From a virus (taxonomy: Duplodnaviria > Heunggongvirae > Uroviricota > Caudoviricetes): a DNA stretch of 6,801 nt. Location: IMG/VR virus record IMGVR_UViG_2713896782_000011. The stretch is one strand, 5' to 3'. Positions within the stretch are counted from its first letter, which is position 1. The number at the start of each line of letters is the position of its first letter. The position numbers were made by a program. Below, one piece after another: positions 6,001 through 6,801 of this stretch.

Positions 6001-6801
6001 TTGTTGCTCTGATATATTCATCAAGTAAATCCGGTAATTTATCCCCTGCCCGCGCACACTGATTTGCCCCCTTAGCAATAAGGGTTTTCAGATGGTCAAG
6101 ATGGCGCGGTGTTAAATCAGGAAACTGTCGCTGCATGGATAAAGGGATGGAATCAAGCGTACTGGATAACGCCATTGCCAGCTTACTGAGGGCAAAAATA
6201 CAGAACCCGGTGTCAATCAGTTTTCCTTTTGACACCTCATTTTTTAANNNNNNNNNNNNNNNNNNNNNNNNNNNNNNNNNNNNNNNNNNNNNNNNNNTTT
6301 TTTAACTGCTGTGTAACAGCCTGTTCTGCTGTCAGTTCCCATCTGGCAATAAGCAATTTCTCCTCATAGTCGTCTTCGCTATCGCCATCAGGCACATCGT
6401 TTTTACTTCTCCTCAGATACGATATGTAAAAATCGCGCCAGGCATCCAGATCCAGTTGCCCTCGCTTATTCGATATCGGGGCACCCGGCAATTTCTGCAA
6501 TCTGCGAAGCTGGCGATCGGTCAGACTTAAATGCCTGGCAACTTCAGTCTGCGTAGCCACTCCTCACCTCGCAAAAACTCTCACCTCACAATCACAACAA
6601 AACCGGTCATGTCCGGTTTACATGTCTGTTTTTTGTTCATGTCCGGTTCACAGAAGACCTGTTTTTATATTTTTCATATAGTTAACTTGAAGAGAAACCG
6701 GACATGGATCCCGGAAAATTTTCATAAATAGCGAAAACCCGCGAGGTCGCCGCCCCGTAACCTGTCGGATCGCCGGAAAGGACCCGCAAAATGATAATAA
6801 T

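What the first reader, a model, noticed from the sequence alone, without database searches (positions are those of the whole stretch)
6561..6801. cosN matching lambda combined with non-lambda cosB repeats and a divergent small-terminase N-terminal domain
The cohesive-end site and roughly 45 bp on each side match lambda cos as I recall it. Similarity then stops abruptly at about 6712, and the Nu1-binding region instead carries three copies of CATGTCCGGTT (6608-6618 and 6638-6648 direct, 6696-6706 inverted) around an AT-rich spacer. This mirrors the lambda R3-I1-R2-R1 layout but with a different recognition sequence. The Nu1-like N-terminus (the DNA-binding part in lambda) is likewise unlike lambda, while its C-terminal gpA-interaction domain is lambda-like. 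Together this suggests a packaging-specificity swap by modular exchange, with DNA site and recognition domain changing together.
Basis: partly seen in the sequence, partly recalled or inferred. Interest (0 to 1): 0.55.

Follow-up and report, generated by a model that had tools for sequence, protein, structure and literature searches.

The report
Uncharacterised lambda-type packaging site, O157 prophage
This is the DNA-packaging start site of a lambda/21-like prophage common in E. coli O157:H7, in which the repeats bound by the small terminase and the protein's DNA-binding domain are of a widespread, apparently uncharacterised type; this looks like a further packaging specificity beside lambda, 21 and N15, not a new mechanism.

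Summary
On the minus strand the window carries cosQ (GGGTCCT) and a cosN identical to lambda's. Identity to lambda-like phages ends at 6711. Three exact CATGTCCGGTT copies follow.

They sit where lambda has R3 (bp 50-60) and R2 (bp 108-118), around an IHF-like core at the I1 position. A third copy, R1, has R2's orientation, unlike lambda.

In the sequences sampled, the repeat type always goes with the small-terminase DNA-binding domain:
- 118 of 127 distinct upstream regions of this domain family, from enterics to Azospirillum, carry [G/T]TCCGGTT.
- Arg20 in the predicted recognition helix goes only with GTCCGGTT; Asn, Asp, Thr or Ser go only with TTCCGGTT.
- Natural chimeras with an N15-type or lambda/21-type domain on this family's C-terminal half carry their own repeats instead.

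Relative to phage 21 (about 96% identical downstream), it spans cosB, all of terS and roughly the first 45 codons of terL.

The region is unannotated in the RefSeq records listed and occurs in 1154 of 5426 complete E. coli genomes. I found no description of it in the searchable literature.

Verdict: a real new member of a known kind. Binding itself is untested.

The parts
6779..6785 (-). cosQ heptamer GGGTCCT (packaging-termination subsite)
   Evidence: Same heptamer at the same distance (30 bp left of cohesive-end nt 1) as the cosQ feature annotated in phage 21, OL657228. GGGTCCTT is kept even in alpha-proteobacterial relatives.
6744..6755 (-). cosN cohesive-end sequence GGGCGGCGACCT
   Evidence: Identical to the first 12 bases of the phage 21, 434 and phi80 records, which are annotated as the cohesive end.
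6711..6743 (-). Spacer between cosN and cosB shared with lambda-like phages (..TATTTATGAAAATTTTCCGG); high identity ends at 6711
   Evidence: BLAST matches to lambda-like phages end at query position 91, which is 6711. Identity to phage 21 drops from 86% to about 50% after cos bp 47.
6696..6706 (-). R3-equivalent TerS site CATGTCCGGTT (cos bp 50-60)
   Evidence: Same position as lambda and 21 R3 (bp 50-65). Invariant in 26 distinct cos variants. Present at the same distance from cosQ (81-84 bp) in 8 enterobacterial relatives and one distant one.
6672..6684 (-). I1-equivalent IHF-like core (bottom strand TTTCATATAGTTA), cos bp 72-84
   Evidence: Two mismatches to WATCAANNNNTTR, as for the annotated lambda-type I1 AAACATTAAGTTA at bp 74-86. 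Relatives have perfect cores AATCAAnnnnTTA at the same offset, 11 bp from R3. Not significant in this window alone.
6638..6648 (+). R2-equivalent TerS site, inverted relative to R3 (cos bp 108-118)
   Evidence: Same position as lambda R2 (bp 108-123). The R3 core to R2 core distance is exactly 55 bp in 8 of 8 enterobacterial relatives despite diverged spacers.
6608..6618 (+). R1-equivalent site with the same orientation as R2 (cos bp 138-148); part of the palindrome AAACCGGACATGACCGGTTT (6600-6619)
   Evidence: Present in this window, PhiR12, Enterobacter (+85 bp from the R3 core) and Klebsiella (+97), and absent from four relatives. Only the inverted reading is conserved in variant loci. The palindrome also scores as terminator-like.
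5993..6560 (-). terS, small terminase, GTG start, 169 aa once the N-run is removed. DNA-binding domain aa 1-54 (6560..6399), acidic linker, then a Nu1-like C-terminal half.
   Evidence: Protein identical to PhiR12_1 XSB41620, apart from the start residue as translated. DNA identical to the O157:H7 copy encoding WP_000235436. Pfam Phage_Nu1 matches aa 49-150, 67.9 bits. phrog_57 matches full length. AF2 model gives H4-10, H15-22, a wing loop and H38-54.
6248..6297 (.). Run of 50 N inside terS, flanked by a duplicated TTAAAAAA; 58 extra bases in all
   Evidence: Absent from O157:H7 genomes that are otherwise 100% identical, and from PhiR12. Most likely an assembly gap or mask, not biology.
5887..6021 (-). 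First ~45 codons of terL (TerS-binding end), belonging to the divergent module
   Evidence: aa 1-45 are 47% identical to phage 21 TerL, against 83% for aa 46-110 and about 96% DNA identity further on. The same N-terminus is joined to a lambda-type TerL body in Citrobacter and Enterobacter relatives.
4093..5886 (-). Remainder of terL, phage-21-like and intact (643 aa in all)

Best explanation
Region 6561-6801 is the cos site of a lambda/21-like prophage, read on the minus strand.

cosQ and cosN are the standard lambda-type subsites. cosB is built from three copies of CATGTCCGGTT. I take these to be the binding sites of the N-terminal winged-helix domain of the small terminase encoded directly downstream.

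Proposed mechanism, by analogy with lambda (inferred, not shown):
- A dimer of TerS DNA-binding domains docks on R3 (bp 50-60) and the inverted R2 (bp 108-118), across a bend made by IHF at bp 72-84.
- R1 (bp 138-148) is an accessory site.
- The TerS C-terminal half holds the N-terminal ~45 residues of TerL, which places the TerL nuclease on cosN, 38 bp to the left.

The domain has no usable sequence similarity to the lambda, 21 or N15 domains, and the repeats match none of their R sites. The phage should therefore have its own packaging-initiation specificity, while sharing cosN and cosQ, and hence cutting and termination, with other lambda-like phages.

Arg20 of the predicted recognition helix is predicted to read the G of CATG|TCCGGTT (bp 53, and the paired C at bp 115 and bp 145).

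The locus arose by mosaic exchange. The block cosB + terS + the 5' end of terS's partner gene terL sits in an otherwise phage-21-like head-gene cluster.
For: Shown directly:
- Repeats and coordinates.
- cosQ and cosN identity, and the break at 6711.
- R3, I1 and R2 lie at lambda's coordinates.

Comparative evidence:
- In Klebsiella, Salmonella, Citrobacter, Enterobacter and other E. coli relatives (TerS 60-88% identical), the spacers diverge. Even so, an R3 and an inverted R2 remain exactly 55 bp apart, and 81-84 bp from cosQ. The distance to the terS start varies from 95 to 143 bp. The sites are therefore positioned relative to cosN, not to the gene.
- 118 of 127 distinct upstream regions of this domain family carry [G/T]TCCGGTT, against 22 of 2400 shuffles. 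These include Pseudomonas, Aeromonas and alpha-proteobacterial relatives that have a simple tandem TTCCGGTTCCGG site.
- Residue 20 = Arg gives GTCCGGTT only (53 of 54). Residue 20 = Asn, Asp, Thr, Ser, Glu or Lys gives TTCCGGTT only (65, none G-type).
- Chimeric TerS with an N15-type domain (P0056) or a lambda/21-type domain (P0063) on this family's C-half and TerL N-terminus have GGTTGTTGTTT-type or AGATCCGTTCTT-type repeats and no TCCGGTT.

Structure:
- The N-domain model (pLDDT 86) has a helix-turn-helix plus wing. Its nearest solved folds are MerR-type winged helices, RppC (6hlk, TMq 0.67) and a small-terminase domain (7lw0_A, TMq 0.62).

Functionality:
- PhiR12_1 to PhiR12_5 are deposited as phages with K-12 or E. 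coli C named as host. They carry the same TerS protein and identical R sites.

Literature:
- The lambda model of TerS binding to R3 and R2 across an IHF bend, and the TerS C-half binding TerL, come from PMC9026076 and PMC4669245.
Against: - No binding, cutting or packaging was measured. Everything rests on position, conservation and co-variation.
- The Arg20/G association may reflect only one or two evolutionary events, because the Arg20 group has 4-5 closely related helix variants.
- Fold matches are consistent in kind but weak (Foldseek E 0.3-3). Profile comparison with the lambda domain gives only 29% probability.
- The IHF-like core in this window has two mismatches and is not significant on its own (1404 of 2000 shuffles do as well).
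- R1's orientation differs from lambda's, so the higher-order complex may differ too.
- The sites share CATGTC with phage 21's R sites (CATGTCGGNCCT), so some cross-recognition cannot be excluded.
- The 8-mer TTCCGGTT also occurs once in lambda-type cos, at bp 38-45.
- In this window terS is interrupted by the N-run. In one identical O157:H7 genome terL and the portal gene are annotated as frameshifted, so this particular copy may be defective.
Confidence: 0.8

Rival explanations
1. The repeats are TerS sites, but the specificity is not distinct. The sites are a drifted version of phage 21's R sites (both begin CATGTC), and 21-type terminase and this terminase cross-recognise each other's DNA.
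For: Phage 21 R2 and R1 read CATGTCGGACCT and CATGTCGGGCCT, against CATGTCCGGTTT here. The rest of the head region is 96% phage 21. N15 terminase packages lambda DNA despite divergent recognition elements (PMC4669245).
Against: The DNA-binding domains are unrelated in sequence (DPRTIERWQS in 21, TDRQLRRLQK here). tblastn to 21 covers only aa 64-166. Across the family the conserved core is TCCGGTT, while the CATG part varies (CGTT, CGCT, CACT, CATT). The 21 positions called critical, bp 56 and 59 (PMC4669245), read G and G in the 21 record and are C and T here.
Confidence: 0.1
2. The repeats act as nucleic-acid structure rather than protein sites. R3 and R2 would form a long-range stem, and the R1 palindrome a hairpin or weak terminator in the late transcript, regulating terS expression.
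For: R3 and R2 are inverted and change together between phages, which also preserves pairing. The R1 palindrome followed by T-rich sequence scores as terminator-like.
Against: The sequence itself, not just the pairing, is conserved from enterics to alpha-proteobacteria. Most relatives have only tandem direct repeats with no inverted partner. The right arm of the R1 palindrome is not conserved in variant loci. The sites keep their distance to cosQ and cosN while the distance to the terS start varies by 48 bp. There is no Rfam match. The motif type tracks the protein domain in chimeras.
Confidence: 0.04
3. The site is a relic. This prophage copy is defective, and its cos and terS no longer function.
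For: The N-run and the 58-bp discontinuity lie in terS. terL and the portal gene are annotated as frameshifted in an otherwise identical O157:H7 genome. Many database entries for this protein are truncated fragments.
Against: Outside the N-run the terS reading frame encodes the same protein as in the PhiR12 phage records. terL (643 aa) and the portal gene are intact in the window. R sites are conserved across 26 distinct variants. This rival concerns only this copy, not the nature of the element.
Confidence: 0.15

Closest known systems
Phage lambda cos (cosQ-cosN-cosB with R3-I1-R2-R1) and gpNu1
   Same: Identical cosN and cosQ heptamer. R3, the IHF-like site and an inverted R2 lie at the same base-pair positions. 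terS starts about 195 bp from the left end. TerS has an N-terminal winged-helix domain, a helical middle and a Nu1-like C-terminal half (PF07471 match). terS and terL overlap.
   Different: R-site sequence is CATGTCCGGTT, against CGTTTCC(T/G)TTCT. R1 is inverted and lies 13 bp closer. The DNA-binding domain has no significant sequence similarity to lambda's. The protein is 12 aa shorter, with an acidic linker in place of part of the coiled coil. The C-half is only 46% identical.
Phage 21 cos / gp1 / gp2 (the classical alternative packaging specificity)
   Same: Same principle: shared cosQ and cosN with a private cosB and TerS. The head genes of the window, from about terL codon 45-50 onward, are about 96% identical in DNA to phage 21. 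The R sites share the CATGTC prefix.
   Different: The block from cos bp ~45 to about terL codon 45 is only about 50% identical. The DNA-binding domains are unrelated. The TerS C-half is 40% identical. TerL aa 1-45 are 47% identical.
Phage N15 and the Monarch group (third documented specificity; simple versus complex cosB)
   Same: TerS of similar length (168 aa), with a short domain and an acidic linker. This family also exists in a simple form (a single tandem site just before terS in Aeromonas, Pseudomonas and alpha-proteobacterial relatives) and a complex R3-I1-R2(-R1) form in enterics.
   Different: Recognition helix (SVQAFDKW in N15) and R site (GGTTGTTGTTT) are unrelated. N15's cosN differs at bp 9 and 12, whereas this cosN equals lambda's.
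PICI cos sites and Rpp proteins (Fillol-Salom 2019; Murialdo and Feiss 2022)
   Same: A lambda-like cosQ and cosN joined to a private cosB that is read by a MerR/TerS-like winged-helix protein. RppC is among the nearest folds to the domain model.
   Different: The locus encodes TerL, portal and head genes. No Rpp-like gene is involved.

Membership tests
lambda-like cos site | 12-nt cohesive-end sequence closely matching lambda's, with flanking symmetry | tested here: met
   GGGCGGCGACCT at 6755..6744 is identical to lambda-type 434, 21 and phi80. The 91 bp around it are 95.6-100% identical to lambda-like phages.
lambda-like cos site | cosQ heptamer about 30 bp upstream of the nick | tested here: met
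   GGGTCCT at 6785..6779, at the same position as the cosQ feature annotated in phage 21.
lambda-like cos site | cosB: a TerS-binding R3 at about bp 48-65, an IHF site, and an inverted R2 | tested here: met
   By position and conservation only. R3 at bp 50-60, IHF-like core at bp 72-84, R2 at bp 108-118. The R3-R2 spacing is invariant in 8 relatives.
lambda-like cos site | R1 in the same orientation as R3 (complex cosB of lambda, 21 and Monarch) | tested here: not met
   R1 reads AACCGGACATG, the same orientation as R2. The direct reading is not conserved in variant loci.
lambda-like cos site | Terminase actually nicks here and yields 12-nt 5' cohesive ends | not testable with these tools
   Needs end mapping of virion DNA, for example from PhiR12.
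lambda packaging specificity | R sites matching CGTTTCC(T/G)TTCT and recognition helix SIRTIQNWQE | tested here: not met
   No alignment beyond bp 45.
phage 21 packaging specificity | R sites C(A/G)TGTCGGNCCT and recognition helix DPRTIERWQS | tested here: not met
   Only the CATGTC prefix is shared, and the helix is unrelated.
N15 / Monarch packaging specificity | R site GGTTGTTGTTT and recognition helix SVQAFDKW | tested here: not met
Phage_Nu1 small terminase (PF07471) | Profile match above the curated cut-off | tested here: met
   67.9 bits against a cut-off of 30, but only aa 49-150 match profile positions 62-163. The DNA-binding part of the profile is not matched.
Phage_Nu1 small terminase (PF07471) | N-terminal MerR-like winged helix-turn-helix DNA-binding domain | tested here: inconclusive
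   The AF2 N-domain (pLDDT 86) has the expected helix-turn-helix plus wing. Nearest folds are MerR-type domains, RppC and a TerS domain, but at E 0.3-3. hhalign against the lambda domain gives 29% probability. There is no sequence hit in the PDB.
Phage_Nu1 small terminase (PF07471) | C-terminal half paired with the TerL N-terminus | tested here: met
   Comparative only. The C-half and TerL aa 1-45 travel together across 21-type and lambda-type TerL bodies and across three domain types.
PICI (phage-inducible chromosomal island) cos | Island lacking terminase and head genes, with an Rpp that redirects a helper's TerS | tested here: not met
   The window encodes TerS, TerL, the head-tail joining protein, portal and downstream head genes that are 96% identical to phage 21.

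The most novel reading that the evidence does not exclude
The CATGTCCGGTT / Arg20 pair would be a fourth packaging-initiation specificity among phages with lambda-type cohesive ends, orthogonal in function to lambda, 21 and N15. It would be the enteric, complex-cosB branch of an old TerS-cosB recognition family (TTCCGG-type sites) that reaches alpha-proteobacteria. A single helix residue (Arg versus Asn or Asp at position 20) would retune one base pair of the site. Because up to four copies of this cosB sit in one E. coli genome, co-resident O157:H7 prophages, defective ones included, could be packaged by one another's terminase.
Probability: 0.55. Interest if true: 0.55.

Novelty: new member of a known kind. 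Interest (0 to 1): 0.42.

Why it matters
Only three packaging specificities (lambda, 21, N15) have been documented among lambda-like cos phages, and the authors of that work noted that few examples had been studied (PMC4669245).

This cosB/TerS type is present in about a fifth of complete E. coli genomes, including O157:H7. It is unannotated in the RefSeq records listed.

The comparison gives specific, cheap predictions:
- three defined sites and a fixed R3-R2 geometry;
- an Arg20-to-G contact;
- natural chimeras that act as ready-made domain swaps.

Knowing which co-resident prophages share a packaging specificity bears on three questions: the mobilisation of defective prophages and of Shiga-toxin prophages, which helper phages can serve satellites, and how to design cosmid or transduction systems that do not cross-package.

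Tried and rejected
- **Sequence search of solved structures with TerS.** Only chance hits.
- **First genome-contig scan.** It missed all enterobacterial copies, because the pattern required an ATG start and these genes start with GTG. It still returned six very distant and useful relatives.
- **First viral-contig scan.** It returned only near-identical E. coli loci. It was repeated with other lead sequences.
- **Literature.** Searches for the motifs, for cosB plus O157, and for the PhiR12 phages found no description of this cosB type. Subscription-journal papers, for example Sippy et al. 2015 in Virology, could not be read.
- **Direct reading of R1.** I considered whether R1 should be read in the direct orientation (CATGACCGGTT, one mismatch), which would restore the lambda layout. 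Rejected, because that arm is not conserved.
- **Programmed -1 frameshift.** I considered one at A_AAA_AAT followed by TGA, exactly where the N-run lies. Rejected, because neither the heptamer nor the -1 stop is conserved in relatives.
- **RNA element.** No Rfam hit.
- **PICI cos.** Rejected, because a full terminase and head module is present.

Full report
**What is in the window.**
Read on the minus strand, 6801-6561 is the left-end region of a lambda-like phage genome.
- cosQ GGGTCCT lies at 6785..6779.
- The 12-nt cohesive-end sequence GGGCGGCGACCT lies at 6755..6744.
- The conserved spacer ..CTATTTATGAAAATTTTCCGG follows.
- After that comes sequence that matches no lambda-like phage except the PhiR12 group.

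The small terminase gene starts with GTG at 6560 (bp 196) and ends at 5993. terL starts at 6021. The genes for the head-tail joining protein, portal and protease/scaffold follow.

- Allowing one mismatch there are four copies within 106 bp, against 0.18 expected in the whole window.
- Alignments to more than 80 lambda-like phages end at 6711.
- The TerS N-terminus is not matched by the Pfam Nu1 profile, which covers only aa 49-150.
- It is not matched by lambda, 21, phi80 or N15 in tblastn either; those matches begin at aa 59-73.

**Where it comes from.**
- The 902 bp around cos are 100% identical to many E. coli O157:H7 chromosomes.
- The 152-bp cosB alone occurs in 1154 of 5426 complete E. 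coli genomes, at 1-4 copies each, with no annotated feature in the records listed.
- Five deposited phages, PhiR12_1 to PhiR12_5 (hosts named as K-12 or E. coli C), have the same TerS protein and the same R sites at 95-96% DNA identity.
- A run of 50 N (6248-6297) plus a duplicated TTAAAAAA interrupts terS in the window only. It looks like an assembly gap or mask.

**Anatomy compared with lambda and 21.**
The annotated records of 434 (lambda-type cosB) and 21 place the sites as follows.

| Site | lambda / 21 (bp) | This window (bp) |
|---|---|---|
| R3 | 50-65 | 50-60 |
| I1 | 74-86 | 72-84 (bottom strand TTTCATATAGTTA) |
| R2 (inverted) | 107/108-122/123 | 108-118 (inverted) |
| R1 (direct in lambda/21) | 150/151-166 | 138-148 |

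- The I1-like core here has two mismatches to the IHF core, as the annotated lambda-type I1 does.
- The R1-like copy is part of the palindrome AAACCGGACATGACCGGTTT, so on sequence alone it could be read either way.
- In variant loci only AACCGGACAT is kept, and the other arm is replaced.
- In Klebsiella and Enterobacter the third site is also inverted.
- R1 therefore has R2's orientation, which differs from lambda and 21.

**Evidence that the repeats are the TerS sites.**

1. *Footprint across genera.* TerS relatives at 60-88% identity were examined in Klebsiella, Salmonella, Citrobacter, Enterobacter and other E. coli. All have the same arrangement:
   - cosQ;
   - a cosN-like sequence;
   - the TATGAAAATTT anchor;
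   - an R3 whose core lies 81-84 bp from cosQ;
   - an IHF core 11 bp after R3, perfect in three of them;
   - an inverted R2 core exactly 55 bp from the R3 core.

   The spacer sequences and the distance to the terS start (95-143 bp) differ.

2. *Family-wide association.*
   - 118 of 127 distinct upstream regions of this domain family contain [G/T]TCCGGTT, against 22 of 2400 shuffles.
   - Pseudomonas, Aeromonas and alpha-proteobacterial relatives have a simple site of tandem TTCCG(G/C) hexamers just before terS.
   - In the loci inspected by eye that site follows a GGGTCCTT cosQ-like motif.

3. *Co-variation.*
   - All 53 distinct motif-bearing regions whose TerS has Arg at residue 20 carry GTCCGGTT only.
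   - All 65 with Asn, Asp, Thr, Ser, Glu or Lys carry TTCCGGTT only.
   - Within one phage, R3, R2 and R1 share the same variant.
   - The Arg20 group is a narrow clade, so this may represent few independent events.

4. *Natural domain swaps.*
   - P0056 (E. coli) has an N15-type domain on this family's C-half and TerL N-terminus. Its cosB has GGTTGTTGTTT-type repeats.
   - P0063 (Salmonella) has a lambda/21-type domain on the family's C-half. Its cosB has AGATCCGTTCTT-type repeats.
   - Neither has TCCGGTT.
   - The site type follows the domain, not the rest of the protein.

**The protein.**
- The full-length model (pLDDT 76) and the N-domain model (pLDDT 86) agree. Both give a short strand, helix 4-10, helix 15-22 (the predicted recognition helix, DRQLRRLQ), a wing-like loop 23-37 and helix 38-54 (52 in the N-domain model).
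- In the full-length model a disordered acidic linker and long helices follow.
- The nearest solved folds are consistently MerR-type winged helices (RacA, NmlR, CadR, SoxR), excisionases, RppC (6hlk, 6hn7) and a small-terminase domain (7lw0). Scores are weak, as expected for about 55 residues.
- Profile comparison with lambda-type domains gives a weak in-register alignment at 29% probability. It puts window residue n opposite lambda residue n+1.
- On that register, residues 19 and 23 correspond to lambda's specificity residues 20 and 24 (PMC4669245). Arg20 lies between them on the helix.

**The exchanged module.**
- Against phage 21, identity is 86% for bp 1-47 and about 50% from bp 48 to about bp 800. 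It then rises to 80-94%, and reaches about 96% over the remaining 5.8 kb.
- The divergent block therefore contains cosB, all of terS, and TerL residues 1 to about 45 (47% identical to 21, against 83% for residues 46-110).
- Citrobacter and Enterobacter relatives join the same TerS and TerL N-terminus to a lambda-type TerL body.
- This fits the published picture that the TerS C-half carries TerL-binding specificity and that the TerL N-terminus is the TerS-binding domain (PMC9026076). The figure of about 48 residues for lambda gpA is from my own memory of Feiss-laboratory work and was not checked here.
A swap of the domain plus cosB alone is documented by the chimeras, not by this locus.

**Mechanism proposed.**
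- *Shown:* the site positions, their conservation, and their association with the domain.
- *Inferred by analogy with lambda:* a TerS domain dimer binds R3 and R2 across an IHF bend, R1 assists, the TerS C-half recruits TerL through its N-terminus, and TerL nicks cosN. Initiation would be specific to this cosB, while cosN cutting and cosQ-dependent termination are shared with other lambda-like phages.

**Rivals.**
- *Cross-specificity with phage 21.* Suggested by the shared CATGTC prefix. It is unlikely given unrelated recognition helices and a conserved core that lies outside that prefix.
- *An RNA or DNA structural role.*
  - The sequence itself, not merely the pairing, is conserved.
  - Most relatives have only direct tandem repeats.
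  - The sites are anchored to cosN rather than to the gene.
  - There is no Rfam hit.
- *A weak terminator.* The R1 palindrome does score as terminator-like, which could be a secondary property.
- *A defective copy.* This copy may be defective (N-run; terL and portal annotated as frameshifted in one identical genome). That does not change what the element is.

**Novelty.**
- The principle is textbook for lambda versus 21: shared cosN and cosQ, with a private cosB matched to the TerS domain.
- N15 is the third documented specificity (PMC4669245).
- I found no description of this cosB type in the searchable literature. PHROGs files the N-terminal half as a family of unknown function (phrog_7289), and the RefSeq records listed leave the site unannotated.
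- I therefore classify it as a new member of a known kind: real, well supported by comparison, common, experimentally untested, and not surprising in mechanism.

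Noticed in passing
window 6248-6297 (N-run), with TTAAAAAA at 6298-6305 and again at 6240-6247: 50 N plus an 8-bp duplication add 58 bases inside terS that are absent from O157:H7 genomes 100% identical on both sides and from PhiR12. If real, it would shift the reading frame. It looks like a scaffold gap or mask at a junction between near-identical prophage copies.
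   Followed up: partly
[quoted passage not shown]: A_AAA_AAT is in the register of a -1 slippery heptamer and is followed at once by TGA in the -1 frame, in the style of dnaX. This would give a product carrying only the DNA-binding domain. Many database entries for this protein are N-terminal fragments, and PHROGs has separate families for the two halves (phrog_7289 of unknown function, phrog_1790). The heptamer and stop are not conserved in Klebsiella, Salmonella or Pseudomonas relatives, so this is probably not programmed.
   Followed up: partly
window 5753-5761 (- strand, terL codons ~88-91): A run of nine G gives GGGG in TerL where PhiR12 has GVAG and phage 21 has GVEA. The run is the same length in O157:H7 PV15-279. 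That genome's terL and portal gene are nonetheless annotated as frameshifted, and it differs from the window by a single gap somewhere in 2.85 kb. The window's terL (643 aa) and portal ORF are intact.
   Followed up: partly
L207 (Salmonella, P0063) and L208 (Citrobacter, P0087), 260 bp upstream of terS: These lambda/21-like DNA-binding domains (ADVRTITAWQK and VDVRTITAWQN) go with repeats of the type AGATCC(G/T)TTCTT / AAGAAAGGATCT. These match neither lambda's nor 21's R sites exactly and may be yet another specificity variant.
   Followed up: no
L206 (E. coli, P0056), 260 bp upstream of terS: An N15-type DNA-binding domain with a complex three-repeat cosB (GGTTGTTGTTT direct, inverted, direct) and a divergent cosN-like GGGTCGGCAGAC. 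This resembles the Monarch-type arrangement described in PMC4669245, here fused to the O157-type TerS C-half and TerL N-terminus.
   Followed up: partly
L010-L015 (Pseudomonadota MAG, Azospirillum, Rhodospirillaceae, Sediminihaliea), 120 bp upstream of terS: Very distant relatives keep a GGGTCC(T/C)T cosQ-like motif about 110-120 bp before terS, and most also keep tandem TTCCG(G/C) hexamers 20-50 bp before it. The cosQ...cosB architecture therefore seems conserved well beyond enteric lambdoid phages.
   Followed up: partly
L003 (phage 434, lambda-type cos) bp 38-45; the equivalent window stretch 6712-6719 reads TTCCGGGA: Lambda-type cos contains TTCCGGTT in the conserved spacer between cosN and R3. 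This is the same 8-mer as the core of this family's sites, about 12 bp to the left of where R3 sits here. It could be coincidence or a relic.
   Followed up: no
window 134-378 (+ strand; query 6424-6668): A 245-bp stretch of the head-gene region matches the 254-kb Aeromonas phage AP1 record (MT713136) at 98.4%. This is odd for a jumbo Aeromonas phage and may be contamination or a chimeric assembly in that record.
   Followed up: no
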